Below, piece by piece: positions 1 to 36,357 of a stretch of DNA of 48,813 nt. How positions within the stretch are numbered: the first letter of the stretch is position 1; every line of letters begins with the position of its first letter. This DNA is from a virus. Its lineage: Duplodnaviria; Heunggongvirae; Uroviricota; Caudoviricetes. The notes beneath the pieces are model-generated. The model did not search any database, was not told the DNA's origin, and worked only from the letters and a program-made list of their open reading frames with translations. Made by a program: the position numbers and the translations under genes. The DNA lies in the IMG/VR virus record IMGVR_UViG_2718218305_000005, positions 1-48,813 of that record; one strand, 5' to 3'.

Positions 1-342
1 ATGATGAAAAAAAGTATTCTGGCGTTTCTGTTACTCACCAGTTCTGCAGCGGCGCTGGCTGCACCGCAGGTGATTACCGTCAGCCGTTTTGAAGTGGGTA
101 AAGACAAATGGGCGTTTAATCGCGAAGAGGTGATGCTGACTTGCCGACCGGGTAATGCTTTGTATGTCATCAACCCAAGTACCCTCGTGCAGTATCCTTT
201 AAACGATGTCGCACAGAAGGAAGTTGCCAGTGGGAAGACTAAAGCCCAACCCATTTCGGTGATTCAGATTGATGATCCCAACAATCCCGGCGAAAAAATG
301 AGTCTGGCACCGTTTATAGAACGAGCTGAAAAACTCTGTTAA
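1..342 (+). CDS. yebY: Periplasmic DUF2511-family protein YebY (host flank, outside prophage)
   Basis: 113-aa ORF with N-terminal signal peptide ([22 protein letters not shown]); recalled as E. coli YebY; lies left of the att repeat. Confidence 0.6.
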
Positions 343-2552: not shown

Positions 2553-2726
2553 AAAAACTGTCTCACGTTGGCGGTGCATTACACCGCCAGGCTGAATTAT
2601 TCTTCTGAATTATCGATCACACTGTATTCCCCGGTTAATACAGAGGAGTCTGCCGGATCGATTGTCAGTGGTTCCTTTTCATCCATTGATACTGCACGCT
2701 GGATTTCAATTGAGACAGGCAGGTAT

Positions 2727-3407
2727 TTAAACAGGCGACGAATAGCCGTTTTTTTTTGCCATTTCTTCCCAGTGAGTTACCCATGGCCCGTTATTACCAG
2801 CCTTACTCTGGCTGCGCACCAGTTCAATCTGTTTGCGCGTCATAACTTCAAATTGAGTCCCTCCGTCTTTCAGTCTTGCGACAGCATAGACGTGGGTCAC
2901 TGGTGCATCTTCGTTTTCTCCCGGGCGGTGTATTAACTTTTCATCAAGGCCAAATTCAAAACTAAACTCGTCACCTTCACGGACAACACGGGCTGACAGG
3001 CTGGCGATTTGACCAGAACGGCGAGCCAGATCAATCATGCCGCGATAACCAATGATTAGCTGAACGTTCTTTTTACCGCTCTTTTCGTTTTTATTACCAA
3101 AAGGCAGTAAATATGCGTGACCGAGGGCGCTACCTGGCTCAAGGCCGAGCTGTGAACACTGAACGATCGCACTGACAAAACTCATGGTGTCACAGTTTCC
3201 TAGCGCCGGAACCTTACGAATTTCTGTGGTGGCGATACGTATCATTCGTTCAGCCGTCATATGGCGTGGGAGAGCTGCTGCCAGTTGCTCTTTCATTGAT
3301 GGCTGATTAATAAAGCTGATCACGTCGTTATTTTTTACTGCTGCTGGTGCACGGTTTCCCTGGGTTTTTTGCAGATCGGCTTTTGCGATAGGTGGTTGCT
3401 TAGTCAT
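2727..3407 (-). CDS. recT: Recombinase RecT (C-terminus altered by an apparent +1 frameshift in an A9 tract)
   Basis: Matches recalled Rac RecT from [14 protein letters not shown] onward; after ...EEMAKK the frame changes at a 9-nt homopolymer (2749..2757) and the remaining RecT C-terminus continues in another frame to 2597. Confidence 0.85.
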
Positions 3408-26612: not shown

Positions 26613-28117
26613 TGGCGATTAGCGATGATGTGATTGGTTTTTTCTCGCCCGGCTGGAAAGCAGCGCGATTACGCTCAAGGGCGTTAATTATGGCCTATGA
26701 GGCCGTGAAACCCACCAGGACGCATAAAGCACGCCGGGAAAACCGTTCTGCCGATCAGCTCAGTAAATACGGTGCGGTTTCCCTTCGGGAGCAGGCCCGC
26801 TTTCTGGATATCAATCATGACCTGGTGATAGGCGTGTTTGACAAGCTGGAGGAGCGGGTGATTGGTGCGAAGGGGATCACCGTTGAGCCTAATCCGGTGA
26901 TGAAAAACGGGGAGATTGCGGCGGAGCTGGCAGCGGATATCCGGCGGCTGTGGGCAGAATGGTCTGTCAGTCCGGATGTGACCGGACAGTACACCCGTCC
27001 CATGCTCGAACGCCTGTTACTGCGTACCTGGCTGCGTGACGGGGAGGTGTTTGCGCAGATGGTCAGTGGTGCGGCAAACGGTCTTAAGCGGTCTGCCGGT
27101 GTGCCTTTCTGGCTTGAGGCGATGGAGCCGGATTTTGTGCCCATGCGCAGTGATGAGTCTGCCGGACTGAATCAGGGCGTTTTTCTGGATGAGTGGGGGA
27201 GGCCGAAAAAATATCTGGTTTACAAAAATTATCCGGTTTCCGGGATACAGAGTGATACCAAAGAGATCGCCGCAGACAAAATGGTGCATCTGAAATTCAC
27301 CCGCCGCCTGCACCAGACGCGTGGTGCGTCCATGTTGTCCGGTGTGATGGTGCGTATCAGTGCGCTTAAGGAATATGAAGATGCCGAACTGACAGCGGCG
27401 CGTATTGCTGCGGCGCTGGGGCTGTATATCCGTAAGGGGGATGGACAGGATTACGACGATCAGGGAGCAGACAAAAAAGAAGAGCGGGAAGTGCATATCA
27501 CCCCGGGCATTATCTATGACGATTTGCGCAAGGGTGAGGATATCGGCATGGTCAAATCCGACCGTCCTAATCCAAATCTTGAAAATTTTCGTAATGGTCA
27601 GTTGCGTGCGGTGGCTGCAGGCAGTCGTCTGAGCTTTTCCAGTACCGCACGCAACTACAATGGCACCTACAGTTCACAGCGGCAGGAGCTGGTCGAGTCC
27701 ACCGACGGTTACCTTATCCTGCAGGACTGCTTTATTGGCGCGGTAACCCGCCCGGTGTACCGTGCATGGCTGAATATGGTGGTTGCTGCCGGTCTGCTGA
27801 AAATCCCGTCTTGCCTGGATATGAAGACGTTATATAACGCGACATATTCAGGTCCGGTGATGCCGTGGATAGATCCGGTTAAGGAGGCTGAAGCCTGGCG
27901 GATACAGATCCGGGGTGGTGCCGCAACGGAATCCGACTGGGTACGTGCCGGCGGACGTCATCCGGATGAGGTTAAACGTCGCCGCAAGGCTGAAATTGAT
28001 GAAAACAGCAGACTGGGGCTGGTCTTTGATACTGACCCCGTCAACGACAAAGGAGGCAACAGTGCCGGAACTGAACGACAGCGTCAACAGGCCACCGACA
28101 GCCAGCATGAAGAATAA
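26612..28117 (+). CDS. Portal protein (gpB-like)
   Basis: 501-aa ORF downstream of terminase and W; start overlaps the W stop. Confidence 0.9.
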   Translation: MAISDDVIGFFSPGWKAARLRSRALIMAYEAVKPTRTHKARRENRSADQLSKYGAVSLREQARFLDINHDLVIGVFDKLEERVIGAKGITVEPNPVMKNGEIAAELAADIRRLWAEWSVSPDVTGQYTRPMLERLLLRTWLRDGEVFAQMVSGAANGLKRSAGVPFWLEAMEPDFVPMRSDESAGLNQGVFLDEWGRPKKYLVYKNYPVSGIQSDTKEIAADKMVHLKFTRRLHQTRGASMLSGVMVRISALKEYEDAELTAARIAAALGLYIRKGDGQDYDDQGADKKEEREVHITPGIIYDDLRKGEDIGMVKSDRPNPNLENFRNGQLRAVAAGSRLSFSSTARNYNGTYSSQRQELVESTDGYLILQDCFIGAVTRPVYRAWLNMVVAAGLLKIPSCLDMKTLYNATYSGPVMPWIDPVKEAEAWRIQIRGGAATESDWVRAGGRHPDEVKRRRKAEIDENSRLGLVFDTDPVNDKGGNSAGTERQRQQATDSQHEE

Positions 28118-30086
28118 ATCCTGGTTCAGGATGCAGGCTGGGGAGCCGGGTGACGCGGATATTTATATTTATGACGAGATTGGTTTCTGGGGAGTTACCG
28201 CGAAGCAGTTTGTCTGCGATCTGAATGCTCTGGGTGATATCACCCACATTAATCTCCATATCAACTCACCGGGTGGCGATGTCTTTGAAGGCATCGCCAT
28301 TTTTAATGCCCTGAAAAATGAGGGGGCGACCATTACCGTGTATGTGGATGGCGTTGCCGCATCGATGGCATCTGTGATTGCGATGGCCGGTGATACGGTC
28401 ATTATGCCGGAAAATGCTTTCATGATGATCCATAAGCCATGGGGTTTCAGTGGGGGGGATGCTGAGGATATGCGCAGTTATGCCGATCTGCTGGATAAAG
28501 TCGAATCGGTACTGTTGCCAGCCTATGCGCAAAAAACAGGAAAAACCACCGATGAAATTGCCGCCATGCTGGCGGATGAGACCTGGATGTCAGGTGCCGA
28601 GTGTCTGGCACACGGATTTGCTGACCAGGTGACGCCAGCCGTTAAGGCAATGGCATGTATTCAGTCAAAACGTACAGAGGAATTTAAAAAGATGCCGGAA
28701 TCCATCCGAAACATGATTACTCCGCCACGCAACAGTGCCCCGCGTGATACCACAGTGACAATCCCTGCACCGGCGGTAACAGAACCATCACCGGTACCGG
28801 CAGTGTCTGATGAGGCGACCATTCGCGCCCGCGTTATGGCTGAGCAGAAAGCCCGCATGTCAGGCATTAACGATCTGTTTGCCATGTTCGGCGGTCGCTA
28901 TCAGACGCTTCAGGCACAGTGCGTGGCTGATCCTGACTGTTCGCTGGAAATGGCCCGTGAACGTCTGCTGAATGAAATGGGCAAGGAGTCCTCGCCGACC
29001 AACAAAAACACACCGGCCCATATTTATGCCGGAAACGGCAATTTTGTGGGAGACGGGATCCGCCAGGCGATGCTGGCCCGTGCCGGATTTGAAAATGTCG
29101 AGAAGGATAACGCCTATAACGGGATGACCCTGCGTGAATGGGCTCGCATGTCACTGACGGAGCGCGGTATTGGGGTGGCCAGTTATAACCCCATGCAGAT
29201 GGTCGGGCTGGCGCTGACGCACAGCACCTCTGATTTTGGCAATATTCTGCTGGATGTGTCGAACAAGGGGCTGATCCAGGGCTGGGAGGAATCAGAAGAA
29301 ACCTTCCAGAAGTGGACCCGTAAGGGACGCCTGTCAGACTTCAAAACAGCGTATCGCGTGGGGATGGGCGGTTTTGGTTCTCTGCGCCAGGTTCGTGAGG
29401 GGGCGGAGTATAAATACATCACCACCTCAGATCGCAAGGAGACCATTGCGCTGGCCACTTACGGGGAGATTTTCTCCATCACCCGCCAGGCCATTATCAA
29501 TGATGATCTGAATATGCTGGTGGACGTGCCGATGAAGATGGGGCGTGCGGCGAAGGCAACGATTGGTGACCTGGTCTACAAGGTGCTGACGGATAACCCG
29601 AAACTGTCCGACGGTAAGGCGCTGTTCCATGCCGATCACAAAAATATTGCCACCGGGGGGATCTCCGTTTCCGGACTGGATGCGGCCCGTCAGATGATGC
29701 GCCTGCAGAAAGAAGGCGATCGTGCCCTGAATATCCGCCCGGCCTTTATGCTGGTACCGGTGGCACTGGAGACGGTGGCGAACCAGACCATCAAATCGGC
29801 CAGTGTGAAAGGGGCGGATGCAAACGCCGGTGTCATTAACCCCATCCAGAACTTTGCTGAGGTGATTGCAGAAGCGCGTCTTGATGCGGCAGATCCGAAA
29901 ACCTGGTATCTGGCGGCGGCACAGGGCACCGACACCATTGAAGTGGCCTGGCTGGATGGGGTGGACACGCCATACATTGACCAGCAGGAAGGTTTCACCA
30001 CTGACGGCATTGCCACAAAAATCCGTATTGATGCCGGTGTGGCACCGCTTGACTGGCGCGGACTGGTGCGTTCGTCGGTGGCCTGA
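28062..30086 (+). CDS. Fused head-maturation protease (ClpP/S49-like) and major capsid protein
   Basis: N-terminal peptidase motifs (INSPGGDV...GVAASMASVIAMAGDTVIM) and long C-terminal capsid-like region in one 674-aa ORF; GTG start after AGGAGG. Confidence 0.8.
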   Translation: MPELNDSVNRPPTASMKNKSWFRMQAGEPGDADIYIYDEIGFWGVTAKQFVCDLNALGDITHINLHINSPGGDVFEGIAIFNALKNEGATITVYVDGVAASMASVIAMAGDTVIMPENAFMMIHKPWGFSGGDAEDMRSYADLLDKVESVLLPAYAQKTGKTTDEIAAMLADETWMSGAECLAHGFADQVTPAVKAMACIQSKRTEEFKKMPESIRNMITPPRNSAPRDTTVTIPAPAVTEPSPVPAVSDEATIRARVMAEQKARMSGINDLFAMFGGRYQTLQAQCVADPDCSLEMARERLLNEMGKESSPTNKNTPAHIYAGNGNFVGDGIRQAMLARAGFENVEKDNAYNGMTLREWARMSLTERGIGVASYNPMQMVGLALTHSTSDFGNILLDVSNKGLIQGWEESEETFQKWTRKGRLSDFKTAYRVGMGGFGSLRQVREGAEYKYITTSDRKETIALATYGEIFSITRQAIINDDLNMLVDVPMKMGRAAKATIGDLVYKVLTDNPKLSDGKALFHADHKNIATGGISVSGLDAARQMMRLQKEGDRALNIRPAFMLVPVALETVANQTIKSASVKGADANAGVINPIQNFAEVIAEARLDAADPKTWYLAAAQGTDTIEVAWLDGVDTPYIDQQEGFTTDGIATKIRIDAGVAPLDWRGLVRSSVA

Positions 30087-30173
30087 TAACCGCGTTATCA
30101 CAATCACTGCCCGAAAGGGCTTTTTTTATGCCTGAAAAACAGCCCCACAGGGGCTGTCCGGAGAAACAGCATT

Positions 30174-30500
30174 ATGGCGAAAAATTTTGTACAGGACGGC
30201 ACCACCATTGAGCTGGTGAATGCCGGAGATCAGACCATCCTGAGCGGTGCTGCGGTGGTGGTCGGCAGTATGGTGGCCGTGGCCATTACCGATATTCCTG
30301 CCGGTGAGGCCGGTGACGGTTTTGCCGAAGGCGTGTTCCTGCTGCCCAAACAGTCTGCTGACGACATTCAGTCCGGCGCGGTGGTTTATCTGAAGGACGG
30401 GGTTGTGCAGCTGGCTGCAGACGGTGCGGTGGCAGCGGGGGTAGCCTGGGAAAATGCCCCTGCAAACAGCGCCACTGTGGCGGTAAAAATCAATGTCTGA
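30174..30500 (+). CDS. Head decoration / DUF2190-like protein
   Basis: 108-aa Ala/Gly/Val-rich protein directly after the capsid gene. Confidence 0.55.
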   Translation: MAKNFVQDGTTIELVNAGDQTILSGAAVVVGSMVAVAITDIPAGEAGDGFAEGVFLLPKQSADDIQSGAVVYLKDGVVQLAADGAVAAGVAWENAPANSATVAVKINV

Positions 30501-32584: not shown

Positions 32585-33007
32585 ATGTTTCTGAAAACAG
32601 AACAATTTGAATATAACGGTGTGTCCGTCACGCTGTCGGAGCTGTCTGCGCTGCAGCGGTTTGATTATATGAAGTTTGTTTCAGACGCAGCACAACAGAA
32701 GACAACGGAGCATAATGCCGTGCACATTAACCAGCGATATCTGGAAACGGCATCCCTGCTTGTGGCGATGTCGCTATGGCATTCCCATTCCCTCAAAGGC
32801 ACTCTGGCCTCTCCGGAGACAGAGATGCAGCAGATCCGCCGTGAAGTGATGCTGGGATGGCCTGCTGATGCACTGAATCAGGCAACGAACCGGGTGCTTT
32901 ATCTTTCAGGTATGCTGGATAACCGGCACGATGCCGATCCTGAACCAACCGGGAAAACAGAAGCGACTGAGCCGGTAACATCAAAAAAGCATTCGAAGGC
33001 GAGCTGA
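32585..33007 (+). CDS. Tail assembly chaperone gpG
   Basis: MFLKTEQFEYNGVSVTLSELSALQR... resembles recalled lambda G. Confidence 0.85.
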   Translation: MFLKTEQFEYNGVSVTLSELSALQRFDYMKFVSDAAQQKTTEHNAVHINQRYLETASLLVAMSLWHSHSLKGTLASPETEMQQIRREVMLGWPADALNQATNRVLYLSGMLDNRHDADPEPTGKTEATEPVTSKKHSKAS

Positions 33008-33342
33008 ACTTTGTCCTGAAACTGGCGCGTGAGATGGGGAGAGCCGACTGGCGCGCCATGCTTGCCGGGATGACATCCACCGAATATGCCGACTGGCGAC
33101 GTTTTTACTGCACGCATTATTTTCAGGATACCCAGCTGGATATGCATTTTTCCGGGCTGACGTACGCCGTACTCAGCCTGTTTTTTTGCGATCCGGATAT
33201 GCATCCGGCGGATTTCAGCCTGTTCGCTCCGGAGGCAGAGGAAGGGCAGGCGGAGACGCCGGACGAAAATGATGTACTGATGCAGAAGGCGGCGGGCCTC
33301 GCCGGTGGAGTCCGTTTCGGGGAGGAGGGAAGGAGGTTGTGA
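32585..33342 (+). CDS. Tail assembly chaperone G-T fusion made by programmed -1 ribosomal frameshift
   Basis: Slippery heptamer A_AAA_AAG at 32983..32989 near the end of G; the -1 frame continues open to 33342. Confidence 0.65.
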
Positions 33343-33385
33343 CAGTTATTGATGGTATCAGAGGACATTTCAGGAGGTGACCACG

Positions 33386-36092
33386 ATGGCAGGTAATTTT
33401 GCCGATCTGACAGCCGTGCTGACACTGGATTCTGCCCGTTTTTCTGAAGAGGCAGCGCGGGTAAAAAAAGAGCTGGGTGAAACCAGTGCGCTTGCTGATT
33501 TGATGTCCGGGAAAGTCAGTCAGTCTTTCAGAAAACAGGCTGATGCTGCTGAGCAGAGTCTGAGCCGACAGGCGCTGGCTGCACAAAAAGCCGGGATATC
33601 AGTCGGACAGTATAAGGCTGCCATGCGCACACTGCCCGCACAGTTCACGGATATTGTCACTCAGCTTGCCGGTGGTCAGAATCCCTTCCTTATCATGCTG
33701 CAGCAGGGGGGGCAGATCAGCGATTCATTCGGTGGACCGCTCAGCCTGCTTACCCTGCTGAAGGAGGAACTTCTCGGGATCAGGGATGCCTCTGAATCAT
33801 CAGAGGAGTCGCTGTCAGATACGGCAAATGCACTGGCTGAAAATGCCCGGAATGCCGGTGAGCTGGGACGATTTATGTCGGTGGCCCGTGTGGCGGCAGG
33901 TGGCGGGGTTGCCGTACTGGCCGCGCTTGCTGCCGCCGCCTGGCAGGCAGAGCAGGCTGACCGGGCCTTATTGCGTTCACTGACCCTGACCGGAGGGGCT
34001 GCTGCCACCACAACGGCAGAATTGTGGAAAATGGCCGGGGTGATCAGCGATGAAGCCGGTGGTGGTATCAGACAGGCGGCAGAAAATCTGGCCCGTCTGG
34101 CAGAAAGCGGGAAATATACCGCCGGGCAGCTACGGATCATGGGGGAAACCTCTCAGAGATGGCTGCAGACGGTGGGGGACGATGCCGGGAAGGTGGAAAA
34201 AGCCTTTGAAGGGATTGCAGCAGATCCGGTGAAGGCGCTGGCCTCCCTGAATCAGCAGTATAACTTCCTGAGCGTTTCCCAGTTACGCCATATTGATGAG
34301 CTTGAGCGCACGAAAGGTAAACAGGCTGCGGTGACGGAGGCGATGTCCCTGTTTGCGGATGTCATGAATGCACGTCTGGAGCAACTTGATAAAGCGGCCA
34401 CGCCGGTGGAAAAAATCTGGGACGATGTTAAAACCTGGACTTCTGACGCATGGGCATGGATAGGTGATCATACACTGGGGGCACTCAGTCTGATCACTGA
34501 CGTGGTGGCAGGAACCGTTGAACAGGTGAAGCTGCTGCTTGTGCAGGGGGATCTGGCGCTGGCTGAATTTATTCAGTCAGCCTGGGAAACGACAAAGAAT
34601 GTGCCCGGCGTTGGTGCGTTGTTTGGTGAACTGGCAGAAGAGAACCGCGTATTTATTGAGAAAACAAAACGTGATGAACTGGCGCTGAGAAAATCCATTG
34701 CGGAACGGGATGCGCGTATACGCCAGGGGGAAATGGGGTACATCAACCGTTCGCGGTGCAACAGGCGTCAGCAAAGGTCCGGGGCAGCAGGAAGCCGTCA
34801 GCCGTCTGGCTGAAGAGCTGACAGGTAAAAAGCATACATCACCGAAAACGCGCTCTGCCGGGGAGAGGGAAGAGGAGCAGGCAAGAGAGGCTCTGCTTGC
34901 CCTTGAAGCTGAGCTCAGGACGCTGGAAAAACACAGCGGTGCGAATGAGAAAATCAGCCGGCAGCGCCGTGATTTATGGAAGGCGGAAAGTCAGTATGCG
35001 GTCCTGAAAGAGGCTGCCACGAAACGACAGTTATCTGAGCAGGAAAAATCCCTGCTGGCGCATAAAGACGAGACGCTGGAGTACAAACGCCAGCTGGCTG
35101 AGCTGGGCGACAAGGTTGAATACCAGAAACGCCTGAATGAGCTGGCACAGCAGGCGGTGCGGTTTGAAGAGCAGCAGAGCGCGAAGCAGGCCGCCATCAG
35201 CGCAAAAGCCCGCGGTCTCACTGACCGTCAGGCGCAGCGGGAGTCTGAAGCGCAGCGTCTTCGGGACGTGTACGGTGATAATCCGCAGGCGCTGGCCCGG
35301 GTCACCGGGGCACTGAAACAGACATGGGCGGATGAAGACATGCTGCGCGGTGACTGGCTGGCCGGGCTGAAGTCCGGCTGGGGGGAGTGGGCGGAAAGTG
35401 CGACGGACAGTTTTTCGCAGGTTAAAAGTGCTGCCACGCAGACCTTTGACGGTATTGCACAGAATATGGCGGCGATGCTGACCGGTGCAGAGGCAGACTG
35501 GCGGGGATTCACCCGTTCGGTGCTGTCCATGATGACAGAAATCCTGCTTAAACAGGCCATGGTGGGCATTGTCGGGCGTATCGGCAGCGCCATTGGCGGG
35601 GTTGTTGGAGGTGGTGTAACGGCTTCCTCGGGGACGGCCATTGAGGCTGCGGCAGCGAACTTCCATTTTGCGACCGGCGGATTTACGGGAACCGGCGGCA
35701 AATATGAGCCTGCGGGGATAGTTCACCGCGGGGAGTTTGTTTTCACGAAAGAGGCAACCAGCCGGATAGGTGTGGGGAATCTTTACCGTCTGATGCGTGG
35801 CTATGCGGAAGGGGGGTATGTGGGTGGTGCCGGAAGTCCGGCGCAGATGCGGCGGGCGGAAGGTATTAATTTTAATCAGAACAATCACGTGGTGATTCAG
35901 AACGACGGCACCAACGGACAGGCGGGGCCGCAGCTGATGAAGGCGGTGTATGACATGGCCCGCAAGGGGGCGCAGGATGAGATTCAGGCGCAGTTGCGTG
36001 ATGCGGTATGTTATCGGGGAGCGGGCGATGAAAACATTTCGCTGGAAAGTGAAGCCGGATATGGAGGTGAACTCGCAGCCGTCGGTGCGTGA
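33386..36092 (+). pseudogene. Tape measure protein gpH-like, interrupted by a +1 frameshift in a G4 run near 34735
   Basis: Two ORFs (33377..34813 and 34698..36092) together make a lambda-H-sized protein; removing one G from ATGGGG at 34735..34738 joins them seamlessly. Confidence 0.8.
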
Positions 36093-36357
36093 AGTGCGTT
36101 TTGGTGACGGGTACTCACAGCGTATGGCGGCAGGGCTGAATGCTGACCTGAAAACATACCGTGTGACGCTTTCCGTGACCCGGGAGGAGGCCCGGCATCT
36201 GGAAGCGTTCCTGGCAGAGCACGGAGGCTGGAAGGCATTTTTGTGGAAGCCACCCTATGCATACCGGCAGATAAAGGTGACCTGTGCCGCCTGGTCATCA
36301 CGGGTTCGCATGCTGCGGGTTGAATTCAGTGCCGAGTTTAAGCAGGTGGTGAACTGA
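36028..36357 (+). CDS. Minor tail protein gpM
   Basis: MKTFRWKVKPDMEVNSQPSVREVRFGDGYSQR... resembles recalled lambda M. Confidence 0.85.
   Translation: MKTFRWKVKPDMEVNSQPSVREVRFGDGYSQRMAAGLNADLKTYRVTLSVTREEARHLEAFLAEHGGWKAFLWKPPYAYRQIKVTCAAWSSRVRMLRVEFSAEFKQVVN

What the first reader, a model, noticed from the sequence alone, without database searches (positions are those of the whole stretch)
34725..34745. Tape measure gene split by a +1 frameshift in a G-run
Two ORFs (33377..34813 and 34698..36092) together span a lambda-H-sized gene. The reading frames join seamlessly if ATGGGG at 34735..34738 loses one G. A second homopolymer-associated +1 shift in the same prophage makes systematic sequencing error more likely than two independent mutations, though tail-less decay cannot be excluded.
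Basis: seen in the sequence. Interest (0 to 1): 0.45.

Follow-up and report, generated by a model that had tools for sequence, protein, structure and literature searches.

The report
Tape measure gene broken by two single-base indels
The tail tape-measure gene of this E. coli prophage is split by one extra G and, 1.2 kb later, one missing G; no other known sequence has either change, so this is most likely an error in the deposited sequence, or at most an ordinary pseudogene.

Summary
The lambda-H-type tape measure gene spans 33386..36031. It differs from intact 881-aa relatives by two 1-nt indels. One is an extra G at 34755-34756 (CGCGGTG, where relatives have CGCGTG). The other is a missing G at 36003 (GATGCGG, where relatives have GATGGCGG).

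Undoing both indels gives a protein identical, residue for residue, to an intact tape measure protein in a sister genome (MCW7325803.1).

Neither indel occurs in any of 5,426 complete E. coli genomes, in 63 IMG/VR contigs, or in three sister prophages that are 99.85-99.97% identical. Across 18.1-47.3 kb the window has these two private indels and no private substitution. Neither indel touches any of the gene's 18 homopolymer runs of 5 or more. The tail module is present in four copies in a sister genome.

Most likely (about 0.7) these are consensus or assembly errors in a repeated region. A genuine double mutation (about 0.25) is not excluded. The recT frameshift elsewhere in the prophage is genuine and inherited, so it does not indicate systematic error. 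Either way the finding is ordinary.

The parts
33386..34813 (+). Tape measure (lambda gpH-like) gene, N-terminal segment. It is in the original frame and ends at a premature TGA at 34811-34813. From about 34757 the last 19 codons are out-of-frame sequence.
   Evidence: ORF list. tblastn of an intact TMP, aa 1-459, 99.3% identical. Pfam TMP_2.
34755..34756 (+). First lesion: GG where every relative has a single G (CGCGGTG against CGCGTG). This +1 insertion shifts the true reading frame.
   Evidence: MAFFT alignments. No match with the extra G in 640 records / 1437 places. 63 of 63 IMG/VR loci have one G.
34757..36002 (+). Tape measure gene, central and C-terminal segment (about 415 codons). It is read in the +1 frame and is contained in ORF 34698..36092.
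   Evidence: tblastn aa 458-880, 97.4% identical, frame 3. Pfam Tape_meas_lam_C.
36002..36003 (+). Second lesion: one G missing (GAT-GCGG where relatives have GATGGCGG). It returns the last 9 codons and the stop codon to the original frame.
   Evidence: Alignments. Best matches in 2950 records all carry the extra G. 38 of 38 IMG/VR loci have GG.
36003..36031 (+). The last 9 codons (GMLSGSGR) and the TGA of the tape measure gene, in the original frame. The stop overlaps the ATG of gene M (ATGA).
   Evidence: Translations.
36028..36357 (+). Gene M (minor tail protein), intact. In this record ORF2 reads through its first 65 nt.
   Evidence: tblastn. Pfam Phage_min_tail.
32585..33342 (+). Tail assembly chaperone genes G (32585..33007) and T (frame open 32971..33342). 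An in-phase -1 slippery heptamer A AAA AAG lies at 32983-32989. This is the genuine programmed frameshift just upstream of the tape measure gene.
   Evidence: Pfam Phage_TAC_2 and Phage_tail_T. Phase check.

Best explanation
Positions 33386..36031 hold an ordinary lambda-gpH-type tail length tape measure gene in a lambdoid prophage integrated between yebY and pphA. In this record it carries two single-base differences that no other known sequence has: an added G at 34755-34756 and a lost G at 36003. Because the two cancel in length, the gene occupies exactly the span of its intact relatives, but its central 415 codons sit in the +1 frame. The most likely cause is two consensus or assembly errors in the deposited sequence. 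They fall inside a tail module that is present in several near-identical copies per genome, which is the kind of region where read placement and polishing are unreliable. On this reading the phage gene is really intact and encodes the 881-aa protein found in the sister genome. What is shown: the two indels, their privacy to this record, the exact identity of the corrected protein, and the repeat status of the region. What is inferred: that the cause is technical rather than mutational.
For: 1. Privacy of the indels.
- None of 640 records (1437 places) among 5,426 complete E. coli genomes has the extra G. None of 2950 records (6032 places) lacks the second G.
- IMG/VR loci show 63/63 and 38/38 with the normal state.
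- The three sister prophages at the same integration site are normal at both sites: L008 (99.97%), L083 (99.85%) and L006.

2. Identity of the corrected gene. Undoing both indels gives an 881-aa protein identical to MCW7325803.1/WP_265196035.1 on JAOWOM010000001.1. There is no other sign of decay in 2.6 kb.

3. Indels without substitutions. Across 18.1-47.3 kb the window has no private substitution. The four SNPs against the sisters are shared with other relatives. It has two private indels, both within 1.25 kb. From my own knowledge of E. coli mutation-accumulation data, natural indels are roughly tenfold rarer than substitutions. Two neutral indels in one gene with no substitutions is therefore very improbable.

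4. Sequence context. Neither indel lies in any of the 18 homopolymer runs of 5 or more in the gene (G7, A7, two G6 and others), where replication slippage would be expected.

5. Repeat context.
- Independent short contigs are 100% identical to the window over 18443/19432..30211/31798 and end there.
- A sister genome has four tail modules encoding an identical gpM, with TMP paralogues 92-98.5% identical.
- Residual errors of long-read assemblies persist in repeats after short-read polishing (PMC8812927).
- Long-read STEC assemblies very often show broken TMP genes. An intact TMP was called in only 1 of 10 places.

6. Absence from RefSeq. The record is not in the RefSeq complete-genome set; the best match is 99.1%.
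Against: - No reads are available, so the error is inferred and not shown.
- Elsewhere the record is accurate. It has no differences from independent assemblies over about 12 kb, and all homopolymers agree with relatives. Two errors 1.25 kb apart therefore need a local cause.
- The indels are 1-to-2 and 2-to-1 changes in G count, not the long-homopolymer miscounts typical of long-read error.
- The prophage does carry genuine lesions: the inherited recT frameshift and a private IS629 insertion in the tail-fibre C-terminal gene. Real decay is therefore happening in this element.
- Defective morphogenesis genes are common in EHEC prophages (PMC2669165).
Confidence: 0.72

Rival explanations
1. Both indels are genuine mutations. 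The tape measure gene is a recent pseudogene in a decaying prophage. One frameshift inactivated it and the second accumulated neutrally. The prophage cannot build its own tail, although co-resident lambdoid prophages with 92-98.5% identical tape measure genes could supply the protein in trans.
For: - The same prophage has genuine lesions: the recT frameshift, which is shared with independent read sets, and an IS629 insertion with a GGA target duplication at 44299-45608 that the sisters lack.
- Sakai-type EHEC prophages commonly have defective morphogenesis functions yet are still transferred (PMC2669165).
- The record is otherwise accurate.
- The sister L006 has a 1671-nt deletion in the same gene.
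Against: - Both changes are private to one record, with no private substitution in about 28 kb.
- They are two indels of opposite sign in one gene, and neither lies in a slippage-prone run.
- The rest of the gene is identical at protein level to an intact allele.
- No paralogous copy in 5,426 genomes carries either change, so gene conversion from a decayed copy is excluded.
Confidence: 0.25
2. The split is functional. Either there is recoding (a +1 ribosomal shift near 34755 and a -1 shift near 36003), or two separately translated half-proteins (about 475 and 460 aa) replace a single tape measure protein.
For: - Both halves remain open for their full homologous length.
- A genuine programmed -1 frameshift operates in the neighbouring G/T genes.
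Against: - There is no slippery motif at either site (CGC GGT GCA; GAT GCG GTA).
- The two-frame arrangement is found in no relative out of hundreds.
- No good start codon or ribosome-binding context was identified for the second half. The only candidates are TTG 34698 and ATG 34710, both inside the overlap.
- Two opposite shifts would be needed in one mRNA.
Confidence: 0.02

Closest known systems
Bacteriophage lambda gpH (tail length tape measure protein) and its orthologues in EHEC lambdoid prophages, e.g. VT1-Sakai H (BAB19568.1) and CP-1639 H (CAH23254.1)
   Same: - Same Pfam domains (TMP_2 and Tape_meas_lam_C).
- Same gene order Z-U-V-G-T-H-M-L-K-I-J.
- Same 2646-nt span.
- 97-99% nucleotide identity.
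- The corrected product is identical to WP_265196035.1.
   Different: In this record the ORF is interrupted by +G at 34755-34756 and -G at 36003, so no full-length product is encoded as written.
Residual indel errors of genome assemblies in repeated regions (described for long-read assemblies in PMC8812927)
   Same: - Isolated single-base indels private to one record, with no accompanying substitutions.
- Located in a multi-copy prophage tail module.
- Sister long-read assemblies show many such private indels.
   Different: The indels are not in long homopolymers. The sequencing technology of the source record is unknown to me.
Defective prophage pool of EHEC (Asadulghani et al. 2009, PMC2669165)
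   Same: A lambdoid prophage carrying effector cargo (nleC), with lesions in recombination and tail genes. Co-resident prophages have very similar morphogenetic genes that could complement them.
   Different: Documented defects there are confirmed features of a finished genome. Here the tape measure lesions are unsupported by any second sequence.

Membership tests
Lambda gpH-type tape measure protein gene | TMP_2 N-terminal domain and Tape_meas_lam_C domain | tested here: met
   Pfam: ORF1 hits TMP_2 (165.8 bits) and ORF2 hits Tape_meas_lam_C (76.7 bits).
Lambda gpH-type tape measure protein gene | Position between the G/T chaperone genes and gene M in the lambda tail gene order | tested here: met
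   tblastn of relatives' proteins gives Z, U, V, G, (T), H, M, L, K, I, J in order. Pfam hits for G, T and M.
Lambda gpH-type tape measure protein gene | One uninterrupted ORF of about 850-880 codons | tested here: not met
   As written the gene sits in three frame segments. It becomes 881 aa only after both indels are undone.
Programmed ribosomal frameshift site | Slippery or shift-prone motif at the frame junction | tested here: not met
   The junction sequences are CGCGGTGCA and GATGCGGTA. The only in-phase X XXY YYZ heptamer nearby is the G/T site at 32983-32989.
Programmed ribosomal frameshift site | The two-frame arrangement is conserved in relatives | tested here: not met
   0 of 640 records, 0 of 63 IMG/VR loci and 0 of 3 sister prophages share it.
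Genuine frameshift pseudogene | The lesion is present in independent assemblies or read sets of related strains | tested here: not met
   Both indels are private to the window. By contrast, the recT frameshift passes this test.
Genuine frameshift pseudogene | Read-level support in the source strain | not testable with these tools
   No reads are available. The source record is probably the one carrying gpJ APH98639.1, but I could not retrieve it.
Sequence-record (assembly or consensus) error | Differences private to one record that are indels without accompanying substitutions | tested here: met
   Two private indels and no private substitutions over 18.1-47.3 kb.
Sequence-record (assembly or consensus) error | Location in a region repeated within the genome | tested here: met
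   Short-read-type contigs of the closest strains end at 30211/31798. A sister genome has four tail modules with identical gpM. This was tested in sister genomes, not in the source genome itself.

The most novel reading that the evidence does not exclude
Both indels are real, and they belong to a pattern in which sister strains independently disable the tape measure gene of this one prophage. The window has the two indels, L008 has A7 to A6, and L006 has a 1671-nt deletion plus small indels. That would imply selection to disarm the tail of one of several co-resident lambdoid prophages while its cargo (nleC) and head genes are kept.
Probability: 0.03. Interest if true: 0.35.

Novelty: not a real feature. 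Interest (0 to 1): 0.07.

Why it matters
It matters little biologically. If the indels are errors, the prophage has an intact tail gene set apart from the IS629-disrupted fibre gene, and it should not be scored as tail-defective. If they are real, this is one more defective EHEC prophage whose tape measure protein can probably be supplied by paralogous prophages. The practical lesson concerns annotation. A frameshift can be localised by alignment to intact relatives, not by picking the nearest homopolymer. Length-neutral pairs of indels are easily overlooked.

Tried and rejected
- **Finding the source record.** A text search for the contig length returned only unrelated papers. Exact look-ups of the IS-truncated fibre protein and of the fibre N-terminal protein did not return the source. 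The 5,666,998-bp contig turned out to be a sister genome (L083) with an intact gene, not the source.
- **Searching metagenomes and species-representative genomes for the extra-G 23-mer.** The single hit is an unrelated Planctomyces MAG contig with no flanking similarity, so it is a chance match.
- **Testing whether both indels lie next to paralogue-variable sites, as a possible mis-polishing signature.** I dropped this argument because 52-67% of all positions in the gene lie within 5-13 nt of a variable site.
- **Gene conversion from a decayed paralogue.** Rejected, because no copy in 5,426 genomes or in the four paralogues of a sister genome carries either indel.
Rejected, because the G4 is conserved in intact genes and the repair gives six non-homologous residues.
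- **Recoding.** Rejected for lack of a motif and lack of conservation.

Full report
**What is in the sequence**

The window is a lambdoid prophage inserted between yebY (1..339) and pphA/yebW (47881..48729). It has the lambda tail gene order Z-U-V-G-T-H-M-L-K-I-J (tblastn with relatives' annotated proteins).

ORF1 matches Pfam TMP_2 and ORF2 matches Tape_meas_lam_C. In closely related prophages (E. coli UTME-3, phage CP-1639, VT1-Sakai) a single 2646-nt CDS of 881 aa occupies the span that corresponds to window 33386..36031. It is annotated as tape measure / lambda H-like. The window therefore holds a disrupted tape measure gene, not a chance pair of ORFs.

**Where the disruption really is**

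The megablast matches to intact relatives were exactly as long as the query (2901 against 2901 nt). That is impossible for a single 1-nt indel.

Alignment shows two indels:
- An extra G at 34755-34756. The window reads TTCGCGGTGC and relatives read TTCGC-GTGC.
- A missing G at 36003. The window reads GTGAT-GCGG and relatives read GTGATGGCGG.

It yields EMGTSTVRGATG, whereas relatives read EMGYINRSRATG.

As written, the gene sits in three frame segments:
- 33386..34756 in the original frame.
- About 415 codons in the +1 frame.
- The last 9 codons and the stop (36003..36031) back in the original frame.

A ribosome starting at 33386 stops at 34811-34813. ORF2 misses the natural stop and runs to 36092, across the start of gene M. 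Repairing only the first indel gives a 901-aa protein with a wrong C-terminus. Repairing both gives 881 aa.

**How widespread the two indels are**

I queried 151 nt around each site against 5,426 complete E. coli genomes.
- For site 1, 640 records (1437 places) matched. The best are 150 of 151, and all lack the extra G.
- For site 2, 2950 records (6032 places) matched. The best two (CP027325.1, CP013029.1) share the local ATTCAGGCG variant at 35982-35989 but carry GG.

In IMG/VR, 63 of 63 loci have one G at site 1 and 38 of 38 have GG at site 2. The extra-G and missing-G patterns gave no hits. A single metagenome / GTDB hit to the extra-G 23-mer is an unrelated Planctomyces contig and is a chance match.

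**Closest relatives**

The window's gpJ protein is recorded under four accessions: APH98639.1 and three MCW accessions. The three MCW records are sister prophages at the same chromosomal site:
- L006 (JAOWOB01).
- L008 (JAOWNA01), 99.97% identical over 22 kb.
- L083 (JAOWOM01), 99.85% identical over 21 kb.

All three are normal at both sites where they cover them. APH98639.1 is therefore presumably the window's own record.

Undoing the two indels gives a protein identical, residue for residue, to the intact tape measure protein of L083 (MCW7325803.1 / WP_265196035.1). The ORF1 and ORF2 products themselves are not found among about 15 billion proteins.

**Error or mutation?**

Several observations point to error.

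1. The four substitutions that separate the window from the sisters over 18.1-40 kb are all shared with other relatives. The window thus has no private substitution but two private indels, both inside 1.25 kb. To my knowledge from E. coli mutation-accumulation studies (not checked here), indels are about tenfold rarer than substitutions. Two neutral indels in one 2.6-kb gene, in a lineage too young to show one private substitution in about 28 kb, is therefore very unlikely.
2. The gene has 18 homopolymer runs of 5 or more, including G7, A7 and two G6. All are unchanged, and the indels are G-to-GG and GG-to-G changes. That is not the pattern of replication slippage.
3. The region is repeated within these genomes.
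   - Independent short contigs from the nearest strains are 100% identical to the window over 18443/19432..30211/31798 and stop there.
   - One sister genome has four tail modules encoding the identical gpM, with tape measure paralogues 92-98.5% identical.
   - Residual assembly errors are known to persist in such repeats (PMC8812927).
   - Of ten long-contig places carrying this gpM, only one had an intact tape measure gene called. The sister assemblies are each sprinkled with their own private homopolymer indels.
4. The record is absent from the RefSeq complete-genome set.

Several observations point the other way.
- No reads are available.
- The record is otherwise very accurate.
- The indels are not classical homopolymer miscounts.
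- The prophage does carry genuine lesions.

I put error at about 0.72, genuine double mutation at about 0.25, and anything functional at about 0.02. There is no shift-prone motif, no conservation, and two opposite shifts would be needed.

**The "second frameshift" in the prophage**

recT (2600..3407, minus strand) has T9 at 2749-2757 where relatives have T8. The same 226-aa truncated RecT is encoded in CP027472.1, where RefSeq annotates it as frameshifted. It is also encoded in two assemblies of independent SRA runs that are only 98.4% identical to the window, without a gap. That frameshift is therefore real and inherited.

**Comparison with what is known, and verdict**

The gene is a standard lambda gpH-type tape measure gene. 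The genuine programmed frameshift of this module, G to G-T, is intact just upstream, with an in-phase A AAA AAG at 32983-32989.

Frameshift-split tape measure genes are commonplace, whether as artefacts of assemblies in prophage repeats or as real defects of EHEC prophages. Real defects can be complemented by co-resident prophages (PMC2669165).

Nothing here is novel. Interest is low.

Noticed in passing
window 2600..3407 (minus strand); T9 at 2749-2757: recT carries a +1 frameshift in an A9/T9 run, where relatives have 8. The identical 226-aa truncated RecT is found in CP027472.1 and in two independent SRA-run assemblies. It is therefore a genuine, inherited lesion, unlike the tape measure indels.
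   Followed up: yes
window 44299..45608 (minus strand), flanked by GGA at 44296-44298 and 45609-45611: A 1310-bp IS3-family element (orfA 108 aa, orfB 296 aa), recognised from memory as IS629 and not checked against a reference. It has a 3-bp target duplication and interrupts the tail-fibre C-terminal gene that starts at 44150. The sister prophages L006 and L083 lack the insertion.
   Followed up: partly
window 32983..32989: An in-phase -1 slippery heptamer A AAA AAG lies near the end of gene G, and the T frame is open from 32971. This is the programmed G/G-T frameshift. RefSeq annotates the T ORF of relatives as an 'incomplete' pseudogene (L001, L004), which looks like an annotation artefact.
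   Followed up: partly
L006 about 7172 (corresponds to window 34128..35798): The sister prophage in GCA_026134785.1 has a 1671-nt deletion inside the tape measure gene with a GGC microhomology at the junction. It also has a 4-nt deletion (window 33899-33902) and several homopolymer indels in the MCP, Z and TMP genes. That assembly appears error-prone, so it is unclear which of these are real.
   Followed up: partly
window 35982..35989: A cluster of 5 substitutions in 8 nt (ATTCAGGCG where most relatives have CTCCGGCTG) changes three residues near the C-terminus of the tape measure protein. Only two complete genomes share it (CP027325.1, CP013029.1). It is a mosaic allele boundary, not an error.
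   Followed up: partly
window 46162..47148: An intact nleC gene (type III effector zinc metalloprotease, 99.7% identical to WP_000701369.1) sits as cargo between the tail-fibre genes and the right prophage end.
   Followed up: no
L089-L098 (places carrying the window's exact gpM): An intact tape measure gene was called in only one of ten long-contig places. One genome (GCA_026134785.1) has four tail modules with identical gpM. This shows how repetitive this module is in STEC genomes and how often it is broken in long-read assemblies.
   Followed up: partly
L087 / L088 4706-4728: A 23-nt exact match to the extra-G pattern occurs in a contig binned as a Planctomyces MAG (SXGS01437577.1 / SYJG01000314.1). 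The flanks are unrelated, so it is a chance match in a very large database.
   Followed up: yes
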